Below, in pieces: positions 1 through 9,730 of a stretch of 64,000 nt of DNA. The DNA lies in NCBI GenBank assembly GCA_018696395.1, contig JABHQR010000011.1, forward strand, positions 56,482-120,481. The letters are read 5' to 3'. Both the position numbers and the translations under genes were made by a program. How positions within the stretch are numbered: the first letter of the stretch is position 1; each line of letters starts with the position of its first letter. The DNA comes from an archaeon. Lineage in GTDB: Archaea > Nanobdellota > Nanobdellia > Woesearchaeales > GW2011-AR9. The notes beneath the pieces are model-generated. The model was given only the letters and a program-made list of their open reading frames with translations, searched no databases and was not told where the DNA came from.

Positions 1-29
1 TAAATGAAAAATCACGAGGAATGATATAA

Positions 30-821
30 ATGCCAAGAAATGTAGTTACACCTGGAGTATTAGAGGTTGAAGATAAACCTTTAGATGGTCAAAATAATGA
101 TGATAGTTCTGGAACTGAACCTCAGCTTGGTTCTGGTTTAGAACAAGATGTTGATAGTTTAGTAAGTGATGATGTCAGTGAACTTGCTGATGAAGCAATT
201 GGGGAATGTTTTCAGAATTATTTAAGTACTTTTTTCTTTAACCTTGATGGTAATTTGTCCCCTATTGCCGGATTTATGTTTCCTAAATTATTAGAAATTT
301 CACCTTATTTAAAAAGTACTGGAAGAAATCCTTGTTCAATTAAATATAATTTGTCAGACAAAATTAATGTTGATTTAGCTAGAAAATTATTAGTTCTCTC
401 TTTAGGAGATTATGTTAAAAATCTTGATTTTTATGATGAAGTTGCAATAATTACTGATCCAAAACAATTATCTGAATATGTTTCTGAATTTGGTGCATTA
501 ATTAATCATATTAATCAAGATAAAAATGTGAGGGCTCGTATTCCTGTTTATGCTGTTGCAATGAATATGCCTAAGAAATATAGAGATTTAGTTGTATTGT
601 CAATAAAAGAAGATGTTGTAAATACTAATAATGTATTTCTTGAAGCTGATAATATAGGTAAAGATACTTTTTTACATAATATGGTGCCAAATTTAGGTAA
701 GATTGTTCATACAGCTGAAAAATATGATGTGGCTAAAGATAGAAAATTTCCAATAATGCCAATTATAAAATCATTGAATGAAGCAAGTGACAGATATATG
801 TCTACTTGGAATATCAAATAA
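30..821 (+). CDS. Hypothetical protein, N-terminally tagged paralog family (member 1)
   Basis: 263-aa ORF with GAGGA SD at 16-20. N-terminus VVTPGVLEVED followed by an acidic linker. Segment ECFQNYLSTFFFNLDGNL aligns with ECFSRVLSTYIISTDRNL of 2795..3700. Confidence 0.8.
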   Translation: MPRNVVTPGVLEVEDKPLDGQNNDDSSGTEPQLGSGLEQDVDSLVSDDVSELADEAIGECFQNYLSTFFFNLDGNLSPIAGFMFPKLLEISPYLKSTGRNPCSIKYNLSDKINVDLARKLLVLSLGDYVKNLDFYDEVAIITDPKQLSEYVSEFGALINHINQDKNVRARIPVYAVAMNMPKKYRDLVVLSIKEDVVNTNNVFLEADNIGKDTFLHNMVPNLGKIVHTAEKYDVAKDRKFPIMPIIKSLNEASDRYMSTWNIK

Positions 822-842
822 ATATTAATAGAGGATAAAAAA

Positions 843-2717
843 ATGTCAATACAATCAAAAACAATATCAAAAACTGAACAAGATCATTTGTTAACACAAT
901 TATTAAGGAATACACCTGGAAGTAAAGATACTGAGAAAGAAGAAATATTACATTCAGCAATGTTATTATCTTTCTACGCTGCGGCAAAGAAAGTTGTAAA
1001 AACTAGTATTTTATCTGCACCTTTTTACAGTATGAAATATGATCACGAGGTTAACAATTTAGAATTTAAAGTTTTAGGTGGCTCAACCACTGCTCCAAAA
1101 AAGAAAGGGGAATATGTGCTGGATGGGTTAGATATGATTTTTGCATGTCATAATCGAGACGTGCCTTTAATTTTACAAGGTGATACTGGTAAAGGTAAAA
1201 CTATTACTACTGAAGCTTATTTGAAAACAATTTTACCTGAAGAAAGTGTAATTATCATGAGTCTTAGTATGGATGATTTTTCTGACAGTCCAAGTGACCC
1301 ATTCAAAACAGATTCGTTTGGAGAAAATCAAGCTGGTATTCCTAAAAGAGTTATTGATTGGGAAAAGATGAGAACAATTGCAGCAGAGTATATTGATGAA
1401 TTTAATTTAGGTAACACTAATGAACTATTACAATTAACTTATGCGAGAATAATGGTTTCTCGTGAAAGAGGATGTGCAGGTATCCCTGTGCCAGAAGTAA
1501 CTTTGCAAGGAGCTAACTATCATGAAAAAAGTAATTTGAAAAGGTTATGGGTATCTGGTTCACAAAACCCACCAAAATCTCAAGATGAACAATTTACTGG
1601 GATAGAACTTAGTGCTTCCATGAAAAATAGAGTATTATTATTAGAATATCCAGGTATTTTACAAAGTGTAGCAGAAACTATGTGGTTAAAAGAATCATTA
1701 AATGGCCATCATAAAGATTTTTTAAAACAGTTTTGTAAAAATTATCAGAAACTTACTGGTCAAAATATTGATCAAGATGCTTTGAAAAAGGAATGGCTAA
1801 GCGTTTATGCTTACACCATGGATTCAAGTAGGACAGAAAAAGCTATTATAACTTCAAGTTTAGAATTTGGTGGATATTTAATGTTAGCTTTATCAGGTAA
1901 CATTGGTAAACTTTATGAAGGAGAAAAAGAAGTTGTGCGTGGTTGTAGTGAAAGATTAGGTAGTTTAGTAAATAACTTTAATTTAAGTAATAAAGTTGAT
2001 GATGGTTCTCAAGAAGTTAAGAACGTTAAGCAAATTTTATCTTCATTCAATAAAGATCTTACTGAAAGAGATGATCGTGCAATTAAAGATTTAGCAGATT
2101 TAATTGCAACTCAAAAAGCTTTAAAGAATGCTTATGCAGTGAGAAGAACTAATCCTAGTGGTGTATTACAAACTTATTTGAATGATTCAGGTTATATCAC
2201 TATTGAAGATGTAGCAGCTGCAACAACTCTGTTAGCAAGAAATAAGCAAAGAGATAGTACTAATGATCCATTAAATGTTGTTAATTCTATCTTGAAAACT
2301 TATACCAGGTTAGTTGATGACTTGGCAGATAAAATGAAAATTAAAGGTTACACCAGTTTTAGAACAGATAATCCTAATATTGGACTAAAATATTTCATAT
2401 ATACTACCTCTTTGATGGACTCAAAAAACACTGATGAAATAGTTAGAAAAATTGATCAAGGTGTTGGAAGACTTAAAAGAATCACTACTGGTTCAGAATT
2501 TGGAAAAGTAATTGTTGCTAGGACAGTAGCAGATTTAGCAGTATGTGCATCTTTCTTGAAAGATTATGAATCAGAAGTTAATCAGTATATCAAAGAATCT
2601 AGTGGAAATGAAATGGAACTAAGAGGAAAAATTCAATCTCTTTACGAACAAGAGTCTGGGGATGACCCTGATTTTGATCCATTGTATGAACACAGGTTAA
2701 CTAGAATCTTATTATAA
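843..2717 (+). CDS. MoxR-like AAA+ ATPase with long helical C-terminal extension
   Basis: Walker A GDTGKGKT, Walker B EYIDEFN, sensor-1 GSQNPP and an Arg-finger-like LSASMKNRV, in the order typical of MoxR-family AAA+ proteins. GAGGA SD at 831-835. Confidence 0.8.
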   Translation: MSIQSKTISKTEQDHLLTQLLRNTPGSKDTEKEEILHSAMLLSFYAAAKKVVKTSILSAPFYSMKYDHEVNNLEFKVLGGSTTAPKKKGEYVLDGLDMIFACHNRDVPLILQGDTGKGKTITTEAYLKTILPEESVIIMSLSMDDFSDSPSDPFKTDSFGENQAGIPKRVIDWEKMRTIAAEYIDEFNLGNTNELLQLTYARIMVSRERGCAGIPVPEVTLQGANYHEKSNLKRLWVSGSQNPPKSQDEQFTGIELSASMKNRVLLLEYPGILQSVAETMWLKESLNGHHKDFLKQFCKNYQKLTGQNIDQDALKKEWLSVYAYTMDSSRTEKAIITSSLEFGGYLMLALSGNIGKLYEGEKEVVRGCSERLGSLVNNFNLSNKVDDGSQEVKNVKQILSSFNKDLTERDDRAIKDLADLIATQKALKNAYAVRRTNPSGVLQTYLNDSGYITIEDVAAATTLLARNKQRDSTNDPLNVVNSILKTYTRLVDDLADKMKIKGYTSFRTDNPNIGLKYFIYTTSLMDSKNTDEIVRKIDQGVGRLKRITTGSEFGKVIVARTVADLAVCASFLKDYESEVNQYIKESSGNEMELRGKIQSLYEQESGDDPDFDPLYEHRLTRILL

Positions 2718-2794
2718 TTTTGCTTATGATTTTAGAAGCAATTGATTATGTATTAATTATGTGATAAATCAAAATAAATAAAATAATATAAAAA

Positions 2795-3700
2795 ATGGCA
2801 AAAATAATTCAACCAAAAACACTGGAACTTGAAGAACAAGTTCAAGGAGAAGATCCAACTAAATCAGATGCAGATGTTTCTGTTGATGGTATTGTGGGAA
2901 ATACAGATGTGAATTCTTTCAACACTGATGTTAAAGCAGAATGTTTTAGTAGAGTTTTAAGCACTTATATTATATCTACTGATCGTAATTTATTAAATAA
3001 CTATTCTAATGAAGATTTAAAAGCAGTATCTAAATATTTGACTTATGGTAATAGATTAACTTTATCATTTAAAGAATTAGACCGAGACTCGTTTATTGAT
3101 TTAGTTAATTTAGTGGACAAAGATTTAGGTGAATTATTAAGATTAACTAACTTAAAAGAATTATTCCCTGAAGAAGGAATAAGGTTGGATGGAACTACTA
3201 GAACTCAATCAAGAAATTCAGTATGTCTGACTGCATTTAATAATATTGAGACTACTTATGGTAGATTTCTCCGTGTTTCTGGAAGAGAAGTAATAATTCC
3301 AGATGTTCATGCACTTCCTTTATTCTTAACATCTGATAGAAGTGAATTACTTGCCAGTTTTTTGAAACATCAAGCAGGAGGTTCTGTTAGTAAAGTTAAT
3401 TCAATTGGTAATAGTATAGTTAAAATTCAACGTAGGGATGGCTCATATAAAGAATTTGGTCAAAAATTACCTAGTGTATATGATATTTTAAACCCTAAGG
3501 CAGTCTTAGATTATATTAAATATAAAAATGATAAGCCTGAAGATCTTGATTTTAAAGGATTAGCTGAAGAATTGCATGATATTAATCAACTATATGTTAG
3601 TAGTGCTTTAGGTTGGGATGATAATAGTGATGTTATTGTTGATAAAGATAAATTGACTGATGGGTTATTAGTTATTTACAAGAATGCAAATAAAGAGTAA
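2795..3700 (+). CDS. Hypothetical protein, N-terminally tagged paralog family (member 2)
   Basis: 301 aa, N-terminus MAKIIQPKTLELEEQVQGE. Clear paralog of 5365..6255 (LDRDSFIDLVNL..TNLKELFP vs LDRDDFLDLVEL..TNLKTLFP). Confidence 0.85.
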   Translation: MAKIIQPKTLELEEQVQGEDPTKSDADVSVDGIVGNTDVNSFNTDVKAECFSRVLSTYIISTDRNLLNNYSNEDLKAVSKYLTYGNRLTLSFKELDRDSFIDLVNLVDKDLGELLRLTNLKELFPEEGIRLDGTTRTQSRNSVCLTAFNNIETTYGRFLRVSGREVIIPDVHALPLFLTSDRSELLASFLKHQAGGSVSKVNSIGNSIVKIQRRDGSYKEFGQKLPSVYDILNPKAVLDYIKYKNDKPEDLDFKGLAEELHDINQLYVSSALGWDDNSDVIVDKDKLTDGLLVIYKNANKE

Positions 3701-3735
3701 TGATTAAACTAAATTAAAAATAAAAATACACAAAA

Positions 3736-5277
3736 ATGGTAAGCGTAATAACACCAGGAACTTTGGAAATTGAAGAACAAGTGCCAGAAGAAGAAGTTAT
3801 TCTAGAAGATAAAGTAATTGACTTTCTTAATTCAGAACAACATCAGTTACTTGATAGAGAAAAACTTATTGATTTTCATAAACTTCCTGTTATCAAAGCA
3901 TTTTATAATGCTAACAAAAGAGTAAGTAAAAATAGTACTTTTTGTTCAAGATTAGAAGATCATATCACTGAAGCAGTTAAATTGTATGATTTATTAGATC
4001 GTGGTCAAAAAGAAAATTTAGGAATTTTAACATCTTTGTACACAGAACTTAAATTTGGTCGTAATGCAGATCAGGTGTTACATTTAAAAAATCTTGACTT
4101 TTTGAATGATCTGGGTTTAGCTGGTAAAGATTATTTACTTAACAATTTAACAAATACAATCATTGAATATGTTGATTGTGAGGGTGGATCGAACATATTA
4201 TCTAATTGTAATGGTGTAATAATTGGTAAAGTCAGTTGTGAACATGTTGACTTTTTTGGTTCAAATTCTAATAATTTAAAAGTTTATGAAATTGATCACA
4301 GTGGAAGTAATTTTGGTGCCACTAGTAATAACTTATTAGTACAGTACATTAAAATGGCCGGATGTAGTTTTGGTTTCAGTAGTAAAAATTGTAAAGTTGA
4401 TGAAGTTGATATTACTGATAGTGGGTTTGCTGTTAAGAGTAAAGATTTTCATCTTACTAGTGCTAAAAAAGTAGGGATGAATTTTGGAACCAATTCAACA
4501 AATTTAAATTTTGTAAAAATAGGCGATGTTGGAGATCATTTTGGTTTAAGTTCATTAAATTTATCCGGAATAGAAATTACTGGTAAAGTTGGTACTGGTT
4601 TTGGTAGTGAGAGTAATGGTTTAACTGTTGATAAAATCAATGAAGTTGGTGACAGGTTTGGTTCTCTTTCTAAAACAATGACTATTGGTAGTATAAGTAA
4701 GGCACATTCTTCTTTAGGTATAGATAGTGAAGATTTGTCAATAGGTTATGTTGGAATAGCTTTAGAAAATTTTGGGAGAGAATCAAGATACTTGAAAGTT
4801 AAAAATATTGGGCTGGTTTTATCTGATAGATTTGGGGAAAAAAGTCATAATATGGAAATAGGAAGAGTAGGTGAATTTCTTCTGTACAAAAATGGAACTT
4901 TTGGTGGTTCTGCAGTAGGCATGTATGTTTTCAAAATTGATAAAATGAGTATATATAATCATAATGCAAATAATGCCTCTGTTGATTTCCGAAATTATGA
5001 AACTATTCTAAAAAATGGAAAATCAATTATTAGGTCCCCTTTTGAAATAGAAGAGATTGAATTTTTGTTTAGTGGGCAACATTCATTGAATAAATCAAAG
5101 ACAGTTGGGCCAAATGATTATGCATTTAGGGTTAAAGTTGAAAGTGAATATAAAATATTCACCGATCGAAAGGCAAACGAATGTTTGCCCCAGTTAGGAG
5201 AAAAATTTGGTTATGCTGAATATGATAAAACAATGAACTTGTTAAATGTATCAGTGGGTGATCCTGATGAATTATAA
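3736..5277 (+). CDS. Beta-helix repeat protein (GXGXG/FwdC-like 19-aa repeats) with the shared N-terminal tag
   Basis: About 11 tandem 19-20-aa repeats FGxxSxNLxVxxIxxVGxx. N-terminus MVSVITPGTLEIEEQV. Confidence 0.75.
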   Translation: MVSVITPGTLEIEEQVPEEEVILEDKVIDFLNSEQHQLLDREKLIDFHKLPVIKAFYNANKRVSKNSTFCSRLEDHITEAVKLYDLLDRGQKENLGILTSLYTELKFGRNADQVLHLKNLDFLNDLGLAGKDYLLNNLTNTIIEYVDCEGGSNILSNCNGVIIGKVSCEHVDFFGSNSNNLKVYEIDHSGSNFGATSNNLLVQYIKMAGCSFGFSSKNCKVDEVDITDSGFAVKSKDFHLTSAKKVGMNFGTNSTNLNFVKIGDVGDHFGLSSLNLSGIEITGKVGTGFGSESNGLTVDKINEVGDRFGSLSKTMTIGSISKAHSSLGIDSEDLSIGYVGIALENFGRESRYLKVKNIGLVLSDRFGEKSHNMEIGRVGEFLLYKNGTFGGSAVGMYVFKIDKMSIYNHNANNASVDFRNYETILKNGKSIIRSPFEIEEIEFLFSGQHSLNKSKTVGPNDYAFRVKVESEYKIFTDRKANECLPQLGEKFGYAEYDKTMNLLNVSVGDPDEL

Positions 5278-5364
5278 TCAAGTGGTATGGTGTGATGTTA
5301 AAAAAATAATTAGAATATAAAATAAACAAAATAAAAATAAAAATTAAAATAAAGGTAAATAAAA

Positions 5365-6255
5365 ATGGCAAAAGTAATACAACCAAAAACACCAGAAATA
5401 GAAGGGCCAGTTCAAGGAGAACAAGGAGATCTGTCTGATATAAGTGATGATGATAGAATTGTTGTAGCTAATAGTGAGTTTGAACTTCATTGTATTGGTA
5501 AGATGATTCAAGCCCATAGTAAAACTTTGAGAAAGGAATATGAGTTAAATCGTGGCGAGTCAATGTGTCTTGCAAAATATGTTGGTTTCAACGATAAGAT
5601 GGAATTATGTGCTTCAGATTTGGATAGGGATGATTTTTTAGATCTTGTTGAATTGGCTGATTCTAATTTAGGAAATATAATTAAAAATACTAATCTAAAA
5701 ACTTTGTTTCCAGATGTAATTAATGTAGAAATAGGCGAACCAATTCCACCAGATAATAGATTTTATCATAAAGCTGTAAATGCATACAAAGAAAAGTTTG
5801 GAAATGTATTAAAAAGATCTAAAGGTAGTTTAATCATTCCAGATATGTACTGTGTCCCTCTATTTTTTCCTGATGGTATGGGTCAATTATTTATAGAATA
5901 TCTTGGGTATATGGGGACTGATAAACCAAAAACTTACAATGGTGGAGACCCCATGTTTTTTGTTGCAAGTGATTTTCATGGAAATAAATACTTAGGATCA
6001 AATAATTTTTGGAGTGGCGTAAGTTTATTTTGCCCTGATAAGGTTTTAAACTTAATAAGTCAGTTAGATTCTAAATCAGAAGAGTTTGATTTAGTTGGTT
6101 TAATGGAGAAGTATGGTCAGTTCGAATCAACTTATCAGAAAGAGATTAAACAAAAAGATGGTACTGGGTTACAATTTGTTGACCTCACTAATTTAACTCA
6201 AAATTTACATGTAATGTATCAATCTAGGGTAGAGAGTCTTACAAAGAAAAGCTAA
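5365..6255 (+). CDS. Hypothetical protein, N-terminally tagged paralog family (member 3)
   Basis: 296 aa, N-terminus MAKVIQPKTPEIEGPVQGE. Paralog of 2795..3700 (IIPDMYCVPLFF vs IIPDVHALPLFL). Confidence 0.85.
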   Translation: MAKVIQPKTPEIEGPVQGEQGDLSDISDDDRIVVANSEFELHCIGKMIQAHSKTLRKEYELNRGESMCLAKYVGFNDKMELCASDLDRDDFLDLVELADSNLGNIIKNTNLKTLFPDVINVEIGEPIPPDNRFYHKAVNAYKEKFGNVLKRSKGSLIIPDMYCVPLFFPDGMGQLFIEYLGYMGTDKPKTYNGGDPMFFVASDFHGNKYLGSNNFWSGVSLFCPDKVLNLISQLDSKSEEFDLVGLMEKYGQFESTYQKEIKQKDGTGLQFVDLTNLTQNLHVMYQSRVESLTKKS

Positions 6256-6364
6256 ACATTTTCTTTTTAATTTTTATAACTCAAATTAAAATAAATTGGA
6301 AATAAAGTAAACAAAATAAAAACAATAAAAATACAATCTTGAGAAAATAAGCAAAACCAAAAAA

Positions 6365-8620
6365 ATGACTGCAATCGTAACAACTACATTGGAAGATGCC
6401 ATCAGAGGATGGGAAAGGATAGTCAAAGTAGAATGTCCACTGTTTCAAATGCCAGTAGTTACTGTTGATCCTGATCCAAACTCAAAATCGTTATGGTCAT
6501 TTGCAACAGATTGTAGTCAAGTGATGGCTAATTTGTATAAACCAGTAGAAATTGATAAAAAATTTGAAACTATTGTTGCTAAATTGTACCAAACTGCGTA
6601 TGGTAATCAAGCTAATACTACTGCTCAATCTTTAATAAGTTCAATATTTTCTAAAAAGAAAAACAATGATGATGAATTTAAAAGAACTTTATCTTTTCAT
6701 AACAGTTTATCTTTGTTAATCCATGAACTGTTTCATCCAAGATATATGCCTGATAGTACTAAAAGAATTGATGAAGAAACTAATGAAGTAATTTTAGGTG
6801 ATAAAGAGCTAATTCATAAAGCGATTTATGAAGGTATTAAAGAAGCTTTACCAACGGATTCTGAAAAAGATTTACTTACTAAAACCCGAAATGTAGAAAA
6901 TGCTGTATGGGATTTTTGTATTGACACATTTCAATATTATTTTATATCTCAAAATAAAGATTTGGCAAGAACTTTGTCTAGGGAATTGAAAAAGTCAGGT
7001 TACCAAATTGATGGGAAAGAAATCGGACATTTTCCAGAAGGAGTAATACCTATTTTTGATGTAGTAAGTTATTCAGATCAAGATAAGCTTGATAAAAGTG
7101 TAATTGGATTAAATAGATATACATATTCATTATTGTTTTGTGGAGATTTAGATACAAGAAAAAACTTGTTAAATTATTTCGGTGATAAAATTAGAAAAGG
7201 TGGAGTGCACAATATTGAAAATTTAGTTTCCAGTTCATTAAAAGGAATAATCTCTAAAATTGATAACGATACTTTACTAGAAAAAGGAATTGTTATGAAA
7301 AAGTATCAATATTCAGTTGATCAAATTTTAGCTGACCAATTATCTCAAAATTATGATAATCAATATCTTGTTGAAACCATGACTTCTTTGTTTATGGACA
7401 AAAAAACAAGGTATGATGCTATTAAAGGTTTTATCAAACCATTAGCACATTTAATTACAGTACAAAATTATGAACAAAGGGGTGGCGGTTCTGGTCAAGG
7501 ACAGGGTCAAGGTCAACCCGGACAACAACAACCTGGACAAGGTCAGGGACAGGGTCAAGGGCAGCAAGGTGATCAACCAGGACAACAACCAAGTCAAGGT
7601 GATGGTGGAAACAGTTCAGGTCCATCAGATTTAGGTGATGTACTTGATGCGATTATGAATGGAATGGATCAGAATCAGCAAAATCAGTTATTGAATGGTT
7701 TAGCAGCAGGTGGTGGCCAAGGTGGTAATCCTAATTCAGTAGAATTGCAAATGTTGGGCAGAGATAAGTATTACAAATTAAACTCTCCTGATGTTTCAAT
7801 ATCTTCACCTGATGAAGAACTGAAAACTTTTGATCAAGGTAAAATTAAGACTTGGGAAAAGCACAGATCTATCAGGGTGCCTGCAAACGAACTTCACAAA
7901 CATCATAAAATGATAGAAGTTGGATTAAGAAATGGTTTACCTGTACTAATACCTTTAGTAAAAGGAAAAGTTTTTGTTGTAAACTATTTCAAAAAGGTTG
8001 AAACTCACTTAGAATCATACTGTTTTCAAAGTAGAGGGATGGACATTGCAGATAATTTAATTTTTATCAATGACTCTTCTGGAAGTATGGGTGGTGGTAA
8101 ACCTGGAGGTGGTTCAAGTTGGGACGGTTTAATGCATGTTGAGTATGGTGTTATGAAAACTTTGTATCAAGCATTACAACAAAATCCTAAACCAGTTAGC
8201 GCTTGGGTTGGAAATTTTTCTAATAGTACATATTTAACTGGCCCACACGATTTTAAACAGTTTTATGAATCAGCAAAAAGTGATGGCAAAAGAAATTTAT
8301 TAATTCCTCAAGGTGGTGTGACCAATCTTAATACTAGAATATTTGATATGATTAAACCAAAATTAAGAGATGGTAGAACTGTTTGGAATTTTATCACTGA
8401 TGGTGGAATCTCTAATTCAGGTGCAGTTTATCAGGCAATTGAAAGTTTGACTAGGCAAGAAAATCATTGTTTCTTATACTTTGATATGTTTTGTAGTAGT
8501 TCATTAGGTGGACAATTGAAACAATTAAGTTCACAAAGAGAAAATGTAAGATACTTTTCAGTTAGAAACATGCAAGAAATTCTTAAAGGTAACATTGATG
8601 TTTTGATTAAGTATAAATAG
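6365..8620 (+). CDS. Putative metallopeptidase (HEXXH) + G/Q linker + VWA domain protein
   Basis: HELFH at 6722-6736, a Gly/Gln-rich linker, MIDAS DSSGS at 8072-8086, then a GGVT threonine and FITDG. Confidence 0.85.
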   Translation: MTAIVTTTLEDAIRGWERIVKVECPLFQMPVVTVDPDPNSKSLWSFATDCSQVMANLYKPVEIDKKFETIVAKLYQTAYGNQANTTAQSLISSIFSKKKNNDDEFKRTLSFHNSLSLLIHELFHPRYMPDSTKRIDEETNEVILGDKELIHKAIYEGIKEALPTDSEKDLLTKTRNVENAVWDFCIDTFQYYFISQNKDLARTLSRELKKSGYQIDGKEIGHFPEGVIPIFDVVSYSDQDKLDKSVIGLNRYTYSLLFCGDLDTRKNLLNYFGDKIRKGGVHNIENLVSSSLKGIISKIDNDTLLEKGIVMKKYQYSVDQILADQLSQNYDNQYLVETMTSLFMDKKTRYDAIKGFIKPLAHLITVQNYEQRGGGSGQGQGQGQPGQQQPGQGQGQGQGQQGDQPGQQPSQGDGGNSSGPSDLGDVLDAIMNGMDQNQQNQLLNGLAAGGGQGGNPNSVELQMLGRDKYYKLNSPDVSISSPDEELKTFDQGKIKTWEKHRSIRVPANELHKHHKMIEVGLRNGLPVLIPLVKGKVFVVNYFKKVETHLESYCFQSRGMDIADNLIFINDSSGSMGGGKPGGGSSWDGLMHVEYGVMKTLYQALQQNPKPVSAWVGNFSNSTYLTGPHDFKQFYESAKSDGKRNLLIPQGGVTNLNTRIFDMIKPKLRDGRTVWNFITDGGISNSGAVYQAIESLTRQENHCFLYFDMFCSSSLGGQLKQLSSQRENVRYFSVRNMQEILKGNIDVLIKYK
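7479..7625 (+). repeat. Low-complexity Gly/Gln coding repeat (GQGQGQ/GQQQP)
   Basis: Imperfect repeats of ggtcaagg/acagggtcaagg encoding GGGSGQGQGQGQPGQQQPGQGQGQGQGQQGDQPGQQPSQG. Confidence 0.85.
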
Positions 8621-8661
8621 TTTTTAATGATTAAATTTTTAATCAGTTCTAAAAAAGAAAA

Positions 8662-8777
8662 TGTGGGCGGCAGGGCTCGAACCTGCGTAGGCACTAAGCC
8701 AATAGGTATCTTCAAGTTGATAATGATTTATCAGTCTTGCCTAAGCCTATCCCGTTTGACCACTCCGGCACGCCCAC
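8662..8777 (-). tRNA. tRNA-Leu (anticodon TAG) with 32-nt intron at 37/38 (8708-8739)
   Basis: Acceptor stem GTGGGCG/CGCCCAC with discriminator A, D arm CCGGAGTGGTCAAACGG, anticodon stem ATAGG/CCTAT with loop CT-TAG-G|A, long variable arm, T arm GCAGG-TTCGAGC-CCTGC. Intron forms a relaxed bulge-helix-bulge. No encoded CCA. Confidence 0.95.
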
Positions 8778-8926
8778 ATTAATTATTCTGAATTTCATCA
8801 CTTATTTTTATATCTTTTGTTTTAAATTAAGTTAATTTGAACAATTTTATGTTTAAGATAAACAATACCCAAATCTTCACTCTAACCCCATAATATTTAT
8901 AAATTGGATTGTGTGTGAGAAATTCT

Positions 8927-9730
8927 ATGATAAACAAAAAAGTTAGTTTAGCATTAATCTTAACAGTTGTGTTAAGTTTGACTTTACTGTTAGTTGCTTG
9001 TAATGATACAGAAAGTATTGAAATCCCAACTTTTGATTACAGTGATTGTTCAGTATTAGAAGGTTCTGTAAAGGATGATTGTTACTTGACAAAATTACAA
9101 TGTAGTGAAATCAATTCAAGTTCAATTAAAGATTCATGTATCATTGAATTAGCATTTGAAGCTAAAAATATAGAAGTTTGCGAATTGGTACAGAGTGATT
9201 CTTCTGTAGATTATTGTTATTATAAATTTGCAATTGAAGATAATAATGCAGAGTTATGTGGAAATATTGATAGTGAATATTGGTTAAATAATTGTTATAA
9301 CACTTATGCATTAAACAATTCTGATGCGGATTATTGTAGTCTAGTAGTAAGGGGCGATCAGCAAACTGACTGTTATTATGATGTTGCAACTGATTCAAAT
9401 GAGGTAGGAGTTTGTACTTATTTGACTAACACAACAGATTTAGACAGATGTTTAATGATCATTTCAAAAGAGATTGCAGAAACTGATGGTTGTTATATGA
9501 TGAACTCTGGGCTTAATAAAGATGTATGTTTACTAAAAGTTGCTAAATTGGCTGATGACCAAGAAATTTGTGATGATATCTATATTGATGTAATTGAAGA
9601 AGATTGTAACAATTATTTTGATAGTATGGGTCAAGAAGAAGTTGTGGACGAAACAGAAACTGTAGAAGATGCTACTGAAGAAACTGACAGTGAACAAGAA
9701 CCAGAATTAACAGTTGAAGAAGAATTATAA
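8927..9730 (+). CDS. Secreted/lipoprotein-like Cys-rich repeat protein
   Basis: ATG 8927 lies 23 nt after TTTATAAA (8896-8903). Signal peptide ends LLLVAC. About 7 repeats of ~26 aa (C..I......D.CY...A......C) and an acidic tail. Confidence 0.8.
   Translation: MINKKVSLALILTVVLSLTLLLVACNDTESIEIPTFDYSDCSVLEGSVKDDCYLTKLQCSEINSSSIKDSCIIELAFEAKNIEVCELVQSDSSVDYCYYKFAIEDNNAELCGNIDSEYWLNNCYNTYALNNSDADYCSLVVRGDQQTDCYYDVATDSNEVGVCTYLTNTTDLDRCLMIISKEIAETDGCYMMNSGLNKDVCLLKVAKLADDQEICDDIYIDVIEEDCNNYFDSMGQEEVVDETETVEDATEETDSEQEPELTVEEEL

What the first reader, a model, noticed from the sequence alone, without database searches (positions are those of the whole stretch)
30..5421. Shared ~15-aa N-terminal tag on proteins with unrelated bodies
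Seen: MPRNVVTPGVLEVED (30), MAKIIQPKTLELEEQVQGE (2795), MVSVITPGTLEIEEQVPEE (3736) and MAKVIQPKTPEIEGPVQGE (5365). Consensus is [VI][VI][TQ]P[GK][TV]LE[IVL]E, each followed by an acidic, probably disordered linker. The 3736 protein has a different body, so the tag is modular rather than simple paralogy. Weaker echoes occur in the ATPase (MSIQSKTI) and the VWA protein (MTAIVTTTLE). I found it on no other ORF in the window. Inference: a docking, targeting or degron peptide, with Glu residues that could complete the VWA MIDAS site or be a peptidase-cleaved leader. It also loosely resembles the beta-strand N-termini of contractile sheath proteins (xxPG[VI]xxxE), which may be coincidence.
Basis: partly seen in the sequence, partly recalled or inferred. 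Interest (0 to 1): 0.85.

Follow-up and report, generated by a model that had tools for sequence, protein, structure and literature searches.

The report
Shared address tag on ATPase-VWA clients
Several unrelated proteins encoded around an archaeal ATPase and its adaptor protein all begin with the same short peptide, which looks like an address label directing them to that machine, and related gene clusters elsewhere use labels of their own.

Summary
Four window ORFs, plus a fifth on another contig, start with M-x-x-[VI][VI][TQ]P[GK]x[LP]E[IVL]E. An acidic disordered linker follows, then bodies of at least four unrelated families. The motif occurs nowhere else in the 1.38-Mb genome in six frames.

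The neighbours are a divergent MoxR-like AAA+ ATPase and a 751-aa protein with an invariant HExxH N-domain, a low-complexity linker and a C-terminal VWA domain with a full MIDAS motif.

The pattern generalises. I read 26 related loci from this archaeal phylum, its viruses and metagenomes. In 14 of them, 2 to 8 neighbouring genes share an N-terminal peptide. The peptide is specific to the locus, not to the body family. In one subgroup the tagged proteins are AvpA-like DGR variable proteins. Those carry the tag only when they sit next to the ATPase/VWA pair (5 of 5 tagged, against 1 of 24 untagged).

My best reading, at confidence 0.5, is a co-evolving docking peptide that addresses clients to the ATPase/peptidase-VWA machine. 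Binding to the MIDAS site and cleavage are inferred, not shown. The supposed "echoes" in the ATPase and VWA proteins are chance, and the sheath resemblance is unsupported. I found no description of such tags in the papers I searched.

The parts
30..821 (+). T1, tagged client of body family B (263 aa). Tag is residues 1-15 (nt 30-74), followed by an acidic linker.
   Evidence: Body family B also occurs in the loci of G412, G085, G263 and G347, each time with that locus's own tag (alignment A8).
843..2717 (+). Divergent MoxR/McrB-like AAA+ ATPase (624 aa). Walker A GDTGKGKT at nt 1179-1202; Walker B IDEF at nt 1392-1403.
   Evidence: Motifs are invariant in homologues. Sub-threshold AAA_7/AAA_5 hits. 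Weak profile hits to McrB and NorQ chains.
2795..3700 (+). T2, tagged client of body family A (301 aa). Tag at nt 2795-2851; residues 1-43 are disordered in the model.
   Evidence: No fold match in the PDB.
3736..5277 (+). T3, tagged client of body family D (513 aa). Tag at nt 3736-3792. The body has about 10-12 repeats of ~19 residues centred on FG, which looks like a beta-solenoid.
   Evidence: Its only body relative among the loci read is the 464-aa tagged protein at the same position in G412.
5365..6255 (+). T4, tagged client of body family A (296 aa) and a paralogue of T2. Tag at nt 5365-5421.
   Evidence: 28% identity to T2 over the full length, E 1e-31.
6365..8620 (+). Adaptor protein (751 aa). 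N-domain with HELFH (nt 6722-6736); Gly/Gln-rich disordered linker (residues 373-421, about nt 7481-7627); long beta-hairpin and VWA domain (residues ~484-751) with MIDAS DSSGS (nt 8072-8086) and TDG (nt 8396-8404).
   Evidence: H120, E121, H124, D570, S572 and D679 are invariant in 10 of 10 homologues. AF2 model pLDDT 78.8. Foldseek probability 1.00 to integrin I domains and ITIH1 VWA. The N-domain resembles DUF2201_N clusters, as a lead only.

Best explanation
The peptide is the local version of a locus-specific N-terminal address tag.

Anatomy. It is a short linear motif (hydrophobic-hydrophobic-x-[P/G]-x-x-hydrophobic-x-hydrophobic-acidic) held on a ~30-residue disordered acidic linker. 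It marks otherwise unrelated proteins as clients of the gene pair they are encoded with. That pair is a MoxR-like AAA+ ATPase plus an adaptor built of an HExxH domain, a disordered linker and a VWA/MIDAS domain.

Shown here:
- the tag exists and is unique in the genome;
- it sits on unrelated bodies;
- in related loci every client set carries its own tag version;
- tags track the locus, not the body.

Inferred:
- The tag docks as an extended strand on the adaptor, most likely with an acidic tag residue (E11 or E13 here) completing the MIDAS metal site. This is how VWA partners of MoxR ATPases are thought to hold their targets.
- The ATPase ring then remodels or assembles the client, and/or the HExxH domain cuts within the linker and removes the tag.

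What the clients do is unknown. In a sister group of loci they are DGR-hypermutated lectin-fold binding proteins, so the machine probably deploys or activates arrays of diversified binding proteins.
For: 1. Uniqueness and N-terminal position.

2. Unrelated bodies. blastp of residues 31 onward groups 38 tagged proteins from 9 locus groups into families A (11), B (9), AvpA-like (8), D (2) and others. hhalign of family A against family B gives probability 18%.

3. Tag follows locus. Mean local BLOSUM62 score of the first 16 residues is 46.7 for same locus/different family (26 pairs) and 15.7 for different locus/same family (75 pairs). Bodies behave the opposite way, 40.0 against 91.3. The null from 128 flanking ORFs (1204 pairs) has mean 12.2, 99th percentile 24 and maximum 47.

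4. The orthologous locus in G412 has the same gene order, and its three clients begin MAKVIQGDGADAD, MAKVIRGEGAQVD and MAKIVQGEGAEVE. That tag-coding pattern occurs 3 times in that genome, all in the cassette, and the G347 pattern occurs 8 times, all in its cassette. Reversed controls give 0, and synonymous codons vary.

5. Adaptor architecture is conserved. HExxH and DxSxS..T..D are invariant in 10 of 10 homologues, and both HExxH and DxSxS are also present in each of the three distant variants whose loci carry shared N-termini (G263, G347, G150). The VWA fold is confirmed.

6. Natural experiment. Of 29 loci with an AvpA-like protein, the 5 with the M[TR][KR]IIP tag all have the ATPase and/or the VWA gene within 1.5 kb. 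Of the 24 without the tag, 1 does (Fisher p 5e-5, overstated because kin are not independent). Crystallised AvpA lacks the ~55-residue extension.

7. Literature, passages read:
- NorD has the same N-domain, disordered linker and VWA-with-finger layout, and uses MIDAS to hold acidic residues of its target (PMC9976466).
- A MoxR plus metallopeptidase-vWA pair is reported in jumbo phages (PMC7824862).
Against: - No direct or predicted contact between the tag and any subunit was obtained, so the receptor (VWA, HExxH domain, ATPase, or another client) is not identified.
- Concerted tag evolution within a locus would also arise if tags bind each other, or through 5' gene conversion.
- In the G028-type loci (L006, L017) only one neighbour has a tag-like N-terminus, and the genes beside it do not share it.
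- Single clients in G088 and G265 have dissimilar N-termini.
- In the seven G338 tags the acidic residue is not at a fixed position, which weakens a strict MIDAS-ligand reading.
- The fifth tagged gene lies on another contig, among genes for proteins with hydrophobic N-termini.
- The ATPase and VWA proteins do not reach Pfam thresholds.
Confidence: 0.5

Rival explanations
1. Homotypic assembly tag. The N-terminal strands of the clients bind one another, by strand exchange or a shared beta-sheet. Clients of one locus would then co-assemble into a hetero-oligomer or filament. The ATPase/VWA pair would act only as an assembly chaperone, not as the tag receptor.
For: Tags evolve in concert within a locus, which fits self-recognition as well as a shared receptor. 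The motif alternates hydrophobic and polar residues around a P/G turn. Up to 8 clients occur in tandem.
Against: Loci with a single client still keep a tag of the same pattern (G222, G279, G302), although a homo-oligomer remains possible. AvpA-like proteins gain the tag only beside the ATPase/VWA pair. The long disordered linker suits a tethered docking motif better than a structural strand.
Confidence: 0.15
2. Export or particle-targeting signal. The tag directs clients out of the cytoplasm or into a virion or vesicle, in the manner of cargo signals. The ATPase would be the loading motor and the peptidase would remove the signal.
For: The DGR-type cassette sits inside virus-like regions with capsid-like, portal-like and terminase-like genes, named from position and size only (L008, L009, L062), and L009 is a contig of the IMG/VR viral collection. 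DGR variable proteins are usually surface binders (PMC5006420, passages). Jumbo-phage and ATV MoxR-vWA pairs are proposed to act in virion assembly (PMC7824862). T5 lies in an operon of proteins with hydrophobic N-termini.
Against: None of the seven window/C2 proteins has a membrane-spanning segment or signal peptide (maximum 19-residue Kyte-Doolittle mean 1.45). The window cassette lies among cellular genes. No encapsulin shell or sheath family is found in the genome, with positive controls ringing.
Confidence: 0.15
3. No function of its own. The shared 5' end is a by-product of duplication or gene conversion, or of a shared translation-initiation region.
For: the repeat finder reports the tag region plus ~24 A/T-rich upstream bases as an 81-nt direct repeat at 68-78% identity.
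Against: Upstream regions are generic A/T-rich spacers with no conserved block. Conserved residues use different codons. The same arrangement recurs with different sequences in 14 of the 26 loci read. The tag sits on bodies with no detectable homology.
Confidence: 0.03

Closest known systems
MoxR AAA+ / VWA chaperone pairs such as NorQ-NorD and CbbQ-CbbO (PMC9976466, passages read; CbbQO seen only as a search listing, PMC4660213)
   Same: An AAA+ ATPase gene lies next to an adaptor with an N-domain, a disordered linker and a C-terminal VWA domain carrying DxSxS-T-D MIDAS. The model shows a long beta-hairpin at residues 484-556, like the NorD 'finger'. In those systems MIDAS is thought to hold an acidic residue of the target.
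   Different: Here the adaptor N-domain carries an invariant HExxH. The presumed targets are several small proteins marked by a linear N-terminal tag, not one metalloenzyme recognised by a folded surface patch. Sequences fall below Pfam thresholds.
MoxR plus vWA fused to an N-terminal metallopeptidase in group 2.2 jumbo phages, and the ATV MoxR-vWA tail system (PMC7824862, passages read)
   Same: The two-gene architecture is the same (ATPase plus metallopeptidase-VWA). Related cassettes occur in archaeal virus contigs (L009, L062).
   Different: The passages I read describe no shared client tag. The window cassette is in a cellular context, and homology to the phage proteins was not tested.
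vWA-MoxR ternary conflict systems and DGR-diversified sensors (PMC7159879; PMC10907252; passages read)
   Same: MoxR and vWA genes are linked to rapidly diversifying proteins, including DGR lectin-fold targets.
   Different: No Pfam family, and so no VMAP, TIR, caspase or trypsin effector domain, was found in the four tagged window proteins. The lectin-fold protein is a separate small protein with a tag, not fused to the vWA domain. These are archaeal and viral loci. [quoted passage not shown]
Cargo address peptides: encapsulin cargo-loading peptides, the phage T4 capsid-targeting sequence, N-terminal payload signals of Photorhabdus virulence cassettes (recalled, not from any call)
   Same: A short terminal peptide on a flexible linker is shared by unrelated proteins encoded beside the machine that handles them.
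   Different: No shell or sheath family is found in the genome. The tag has no sequence relation to those signals.
AvpA, nanoarchaeal DGR variable protein, PDB 5IOO (PMC5006420, passages read)
   Same: The clients of the DGR-type sister loci are AvpA homologues (phmmer E 3e-7).
   Different: AvpA (255 aa) aligns from client residue ~71 and lacks the tag and linker. The term 'N-terminal' does not occur in that paper's main text, and it says AvpA's function is unknown.

Membership tests
MoxR-clade AAA+ ATPase (Pfam AAA_5/AAA_3) | Walker A GxxGxGK[ST] and Walker B hhhhDE | tested here: met
   GDTGKGKT at residues 113-120 and IDEF at 184-187. G113, T115, G116, G118, K119, T120, D185 and E186 are invariant in 4 of 4 homologues.
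MoxR-clade AAA+ ATPase (Pfam AAA_5/AAA_3) | Pfam model at or above its gathering score | tested here: not met
   Window protein: AAA_7 13.4 bits against a cut-off of 25.8. Homologues: AAA_5 21.2 and 18.8 bits against 22. A MoxR of another subfamily in the G263 locus does pass (AAA_5 44.5 bits).
MoxR-clade AAA+ ATPase (Pfam AAA_5/AAA_3) | Helix-2 insert, arginine finger, hexameric ring | not tested
VWA domain with MIDAS | DxSxS ... T ... D metal-site motif | tested here: met
   D570, S572 and D679 are invariant. S571, G573, S574 and T678 are conserved in at least 90% of 10 sequences.
VWA domain with MIDAS | alpha/beta VWA fold | tested here: met
   AF2 model pLDDT 78.8. Foldseek probability 1.00 to ITIH1, integrin I domains and complement C2a/factor B. 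TM-score normalised by target reaches 0.65, with E-values from 2e-4.
VWA domain with MIDAS | Pfam VWA model above threshold | tested here: not met
   No VWA family was listed for 6 of 6 homologues at E up to 1 or for 4 of 4 at E up to 0.1. G263's distant variant gives VWA_2 at 18.5 bits against 27.
Zincin-like metallopeptidase / DUF2201_N-type domain fused to VWA | HExxH | tested here: met
   H120, E121 and H124 are invariant in 10 of 10. HExxH is also present in all five more distant VWA variants examined, from G263, G347, G150, G088 and G265.
Zincin-like metallopeptidase / DUF2201_N-type domain fused to VWA | Zincin fold with a third metal ligand; family-model match | tested here: inconclusive
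   No Pfam hit. ESM Atlas feature score is 0.89 to clusters carrying PF13203 on 23-94% of members, which is a lead only. The N-domain was not folded or searched alone.
vWA-MoxR-VMAP ternary conflict system | A VMAP protein and effector domains (TIR, caspase, trypsin and the like) | tested here: inconclusive
   The Pfam scan of the four tagged proteins lists no family above threshold. That Pfam holds VMAP models is recalled. Only PF20030 (bpMoxR), which is described as the MoxR domain of the MoxR-vWA-beta-propeller ternary systems, was seen in a listing.
Diversity-generating retroelement cassette | Reverse transcriptase plus template/variable repeats differing at template adenines | tested here: not met
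   Window: no RT found with the L012 RT as query (0 matches; genome 98.9% complete), and no TR/VR-like repeat in 1-9000. Sister locus L012 does meet it: RVT_1 at 92.6 bits, and 34 of 35 TR-VR mismatches lie at TR adenines.
Encapsulin cargo-loading peptide | An encapsulin shell gene in the genome | tested here: not met
   PF04454 gives 0 matches in G000. The control rings in 3 of 14 reference genomes.
Contractile sheath protein N-terminus | Sheath family protein or sheath-like fold | tested here: not met
   PF04984 gives 0 matches in G000, and the control rings in 3 of 14. The T2 model has no Foldseek match at E <= 0.001.

The most novel reading that the evidence does not exclude
The tags are a locus-specific addressing code of a previously undescribed client-delivery system in DPANN-type archaea and their viruses. 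A MoxR-like ATPase with a peptidase-VWA adaptor would capture, through a co-evolving N-terminal 'zip code', whole arrays of fast-diverging proteins. In some lineages these are DGR-hypermutated lectin-fold proteins. The machine would then activate, assemble or deploy them. If so, the client list of a MoxR/VWA machine could be read from sequence alone, and archaeal DGR variable proteins would be tied to a defined molecular machine.
Probability: 0.3. Interest if true: 0.85.

Novelty: new variant of a known kind. Interest (0 to 1): 0.7.

Why it matters
The substrates of most MoxR/VWA chaperone pairs are unknown. Here the presumed clients identify themselves by a shared tag, which makes substrate recognition directly testable with tag-reporter fusions, MIDAS and HExxH mutants, and tag swaps between loci.

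It also gives a first functional handle on AvpA-like DGR variable proteins of nano-sized archaea. The structural paper I read (PMC5006420) calls their function unknown. A subset of them is now linked by a dedicated tag to an ATPase/peptidase-VWA machine, including in virus genomes.

Finally, within-locus sharing of N-terminal peptides is a simple rule that can be computed. It could uncover client sets of other orphan machines in genomes where family-based annotation fails: all six window proteins lack any significant Pfam or NCBIfam hit.

Tried and rejected
Co-fold. The full adaptor (751 aa, alignment A2) was folded with the first 45 residues of T2 (alignment A4), plus Mg and Zn. Score 0.00 in both runs, verdict 'no answer'. 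This is neither for nor against binding.

Family scans of the window proteins.
- Pfam and NCBIfam list only sub-threshold matches, best E-value 0.00073 at 19 bits against a cut-off of 256.
- PHROGs lists only weak phrog_249 'porphyrin biosynthesis' matches for ATPases, at E about 0.001-0.01.
- PADLOC lists only weak matches, at E 0.001 or worse.

Homologue searches.
- The word-indexed search with T2 found only itself.
- The exhaustive profile search found 12 distant relatives but gives no genomic context.
- The T5 body has no homologue in 5 genomes that hold a cassette.

T2 fold. Foldseek against the PDB gave 0 matches at E <= 0.001. VIA-align against 48,161 chains gave a best Z of 4.3. This does not show a new fold. 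Profile searches of families A and B against PDB sequences gave only chance-level hits.

ESM Atlas for T3: best score 0.80, uninformative.

Expression. No RNA holder was listed, so expression and the true start could not be checked.

Population variation. Contigs of four further marine or seawater runs hold pieces identical to the window, with no variant listed. The listed joints have sides of only 20-39 letters (20-27 for all but one) and were not interpreted.

Other readings rejected.
- T4-type capsid-targeting sequence with cleavage at L/I-x-E (recalled): the tag does not fit that spacing.
- Degron: no specific evidence.
- Signal peptide: no hydrophobic segment.

Limits of the literature check.
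- Searches found no description of shared N-terminal tags on MoxR/VWA neighbours.
They may list such loci or accessory genes.
- Paul et al. 2017 (Nature Microbiology), on CPR/DPANN DGRs, is not held and is only recalled.

Unpublished genomes. The tallies of 19 of 401 and 54 of 401 each include one genome flagged as unpublished (G409 and G262). I analysed no sequence from them: L055 and L059 were not opened, and L090 was excluded.

Full report
OBSERVATION

The window is G000:C16:56482-120481, from a 1.38-Mb, 29% G+C genome in 24 contigs.

A six-frame scan of the whole genome finds the strict motif [VI][VI][TQ]P[GK][TV][LP]E[IVL]E only at those four places, each 3-4 residues behind the Met. A looser form adds a fifth N-terminal case on contig C2 (MVRVITPKMPEIEE..., 256 aa, here T5) and one internal chance hit.

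With a PSSM built from the five cores, which is circular for them, they score 26-32 bits. The next best of 2171 ORF N-termini scores 11.5. The ATPase and VWA 'echoes' rank 136th and 155th.

In-frame stops lie 0-4 codons upstream of each ATG. The upstream spacers are generic A/T-rich sequence. Conserved residues use different codons. So the peptide, not the DNA, is what is conserved.

Residues 15-45 are acidic (6-9 D+E against 1-3 K+R). Residues 1-43 of T2 are modelled with pLDDT below 50. None of the seven proteins has a membrane-like segment.

THE NEIGHBOURS

No window protein of the cassette reaches a Pfam or NCBIfam threshold.

The 624-aa protein has Walker A GDTGKGKT and Walker B IDEF, both invariant in homologues. 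It has sub-threshold dynein-related AAA hits and weak profile hits to McrB and NorQ chains. I read it as a divergent MoxR/McrB-like AAA+ ATPase.

The 751-aa protein has four features:
- HELFH at residues 120-124;
- a Gly/Gln-rich disordered stretch at 373-421;
- a long beta-hairpin;
- a C-terminal domain with DSSGS at 570-574 and TDG at 678-680.

H120, E121, H124, D570, S572 and D679 are invariant in 10 of 10 homologues. The AF2 model (pLDDT 78.8) matches integrin I domains, ITIH1 and complement VWA domains with Foldseek probability 1.00.

The N-domain resembles DUF2201_N 'putative metallopeptidase' clusters in the ESM Atlas, at score 0.89, which is a lead only.

The layout of N-domain, disordered linker and VWA with a protruding hairpin is the one described for NorD (PMC9976466, passages). 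A MoxR partnered with a vWA that is fused to an N-terminal metallopeptidase has been noted in jumbo phages (PMC7824862, passages).

THE TAG GENERALISES

How common the genes are:
- ATPase homologues occur in 5 of 41 related genomes, counting G000, and were not found in the genome of the same genus (93% complete).
- The adaptor family occurs in 19 of 401 genomes sampled from the phylum.
- Body family A occurs in 8 of 401.

The cassette is therefore a patchy accessory element.

I read 26 loci from these searches and from the viral, genome and metagenome collections. In 14 of them, two or more neighbouring genes share an N-terminal peptide:

- G000: 4 local genes plus 1 remote.
- G412: 3 genes, MAK[VI][IV][QR]G[ED]GA.., with the same gene order as the window.
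- G085: 3 genes, ..VI[RK]G+DLEF[AS]S.
- G273: 2 genes, KLLVE.[DE]YT.FGDTP.
- G338: 7 genes, .[VI]LKP...
- G263: 5 genes, M.T.DDALE.LP.G.
- G347: 8 genes in tandem, MAIDDAI[DE].M.
- Seven DGR-type loci (G022, G229, G192, L009-L012): M[IT][KR]IIPR[ED].I[KR]HLEW.

The remaining loci:
- One (G150) has two ORFs with identical first 60 residues, which may be a duplication.
- Nine show only one candidate client, or lie on short contigs. Several of these still fit the pattern, for example RIIQGGELELEE in G279, RIVQGGELDL in G302 and SLIVEGEELL in G222.
- In two (G028/L006 and L017), genes of similar size beside the ATPase do not share an N-terminus.

The G263, G347 and G150 loci use a different adaptor subfamily, and G263 also a different MoxR subfamily. 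Their adaptors still have HExxH near residue 100-115 and DxSGS.

Distant family-A homologues from the exhaustive profile search also mostly begin with such a motif, for example MAKGIIQGEG.., MAILIDGEMM.., MGDKIIEGEG...

TAG FOLLOWS THE LOCUS, BODY FOLLOWS THE FAMILY

After removing the first 30 residues, blastp groups 38 tagged proteins into these families:
- family A: 11 members, including T2 and T4;
- family B: 9 members, including T1;
- AvpA-like: 8 members;
- family D: T3 plus the 464-aa G412 protein;
- a pair from G028/L017;
- five singletons, including T5.

Families A and B are not detectably related (hhalign probability 18%).

For the 22 proteins of families A, B and D, the mean local score of the first 16 residues is:
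- 46.7 for same locus, different family (26 pairs);
- 50.0 for same locus, same family (17 pairs);
- 15.7 for different locus, same family (75 pairs);
- 16.3 for different locus, different family (113 pairs).

Body scores run the other way: 40.0, 196.9, 91.3 and 36.7.

A null from 128 flanking ORFs (1204 pairs) has mean 12.2, 99th percentile 24 and maximum 47.

The tag-coding pattern of G347 occurs 8 times in that genome and that of G412 occurs 3 times. All copies lie in the cassettes, with synonymous variation, and reversed controls give 0.

THE DGR LINK AND A NATURAL EXPERIMENT

In the sister loci a reverse transcriptase lies divergently upstream (RVT_1 at 92.6 bits).

In L012 an 87-nt repeat occurs at the 3' ends of the three tagged genes, with a fourth, A-rich copy downstream. 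Of 35 differences from that copy, 34 lie at its adenines. These tagged proteins are therefore DGR variable proteins.

They are homologues of AvpA (PDB 5IOO, E 3e-7). AvpA aligns only from client residue ~71 and so lacks the tag and linker.

I examined 29 loci with an AvpA-like protein, leaving out one locus from an unpublished genome. The 5 whose protein starts M[TR][KR]IIP.. all have the ATPase and/or adaptor gene within 1.5 kb. Only 1 of the 24 without that tag does, namely G088, whose N-terminus is different. Fisher p is 5e-5, but it is overstated: two of the five are near-identical, and kin are not independent.

The window genome has no RT detectable with this query and no TR/VR repeat. 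Its cassette is a DGR-less relative.

Three DGR-type cassettes sit within virus-like regions holding capsid-like, portal-like and terminase-like genes (L008, L009, L062). Those gene names rest on position and size only, and I ran no family scan on them. L009 is a contig of the IMG/VR viral collection.

MECHANISM

What is shown: a unique N-terminal peptide, under selection at the peptide level, on a disordered tether. It is shared by unrelated proteins. It changes from locus to locus together with the ATPase/adaptor genes. It is gained by a known protein family only next to those genes.

This is the signature of a short linear motif that co-evolves with a receptor encoded in the same locus.

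Which receptor is inference. The best candidate is the VWA MIDAS face of the adaptor. MIDAS sites bind extended acidic peptides or acidic target residues (PMC7159879 and PMC9976466, passages). The motif's hydrophobic/acidic alternation..LE[IVL]E, recalls integrin L/I-D/E-V/T ligands, but that comparison is recalled and not tested.

The invariant HExxH suggests the adaptor also cuts its clients, most simply within the linker. The ATPase would supply remodelling.

Rival readings remain open: tags that bind each other, or a signal for export or particle loading.

What the clients do is unknown. T2 has no match among solved structures. T3 looks like a beta-solenoid with ~19-residue FG repeats.

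COMPARISON AND NOVELTY

The machine works like a MoxR/VWA chaperone pair and has the jumbo-phage type of architecture. It does not reach the family thresholds of Pfam. It also lacks the VMAP and effector parts of the bacterial ternary conflict systems.

The new element is the tag itself and its locus-specific code. I found no description of it in six literature searches or in the passages read from eight papers. Supplements and one key paper could not be seen.

VERDICT

I rate it a new variant of a known kind, with interest 0.7.

Noticed in passing
L012:7782-16338 (also L008, L009, L010, L011, L062, L063): A complete DGR cassette: an RT with an HTH_40 domain, a MoxR-like ATPase, a peptidase-VWA adaptor, 2-3 AvpA-like variable proteins and a template repeat. 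The same cassette occurs in cellular contigs and inside virus-like regions that have capsid-like, portal-like and terminase-like genes.
   Followed up: partly
L036:6464-12940 (G347:C6): Eight tandem genes of 253-279 aa all begin MAIDDAI[DE].M. They sit next to one HExxH-VWA gene. A ChlI-like AAA+ gene and a second VWA gene lie about 1.5 kb away on the other strand.
   Followed up: partly
G000 contig C2:33127-40886, minus strand (L020): The fifth tagged gene (T5) sits in a run of about ten same-strand genes. Many of them begin with hydrophobic, signal-like N-termini and are Cys-rich. None was identified.
   Followed up: no
L017:11800-15785: Three small proteins around the adaptor gene share an N-terminal region, M[AP]RKVEYY[KE]CDC..G[KR]LE.., with paired cysteines. 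This may be a zinc-ribbon version of a shared N-terminal module.
   Followed up: no
L079, L080 (G340, G165): AvpA-like proteins without an ATPase/VWA neighbour share a different N-terminus, MKSKQDYL[RK]MLFGEP[KR]ARE.. G340 has six matches and G165 has four, some of them short fragments. This may be another shared N-terminal module with another partner.
   Followed up: no
window 150-230, 2930-2990, and the equivalent region in family A and B homologues: Just after the linker, families A and B both start with an amphipathic helix of similar pattern..ECF.NYLSTF in T1..ECFSRVLSTY in T2, A.EI.G..LV.YF.G in family B. This accounts for the weak T1-T2 match over the first 100 residues. Whether it is a second shared module is open.
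   Followed up: partly
window 7481-7627: A Gly/Gln-rich low-complexity linker in the adaptor, encoded by imperfect GGTCAAGG-type repeats. Homologues have acidic or Lys/Gly-rich linkers at the same place.
   Followed up: no
window 8909-9730: Directly downstream of the cassette lies a 273-aa protein with a hydrophobic N-terminus, many regularly spaced Cys/Tyr residues and a very acidic C-terminal tail. It has no significant family hit.
   Followed up: no
L066:12688-14305 (G279): A 251-aa paralogue lies next to the tagged 286-aa client. It starts right at the body and lacks the tag and linker, so it is a natural tag-less copy.
   Followed up: no
window 1-8700: Short contigs identical to the cassette occur in marine or seawater metagenome runs of at least four further studies. 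The organism therefore recurs in marine samples.
   Followed up: partly
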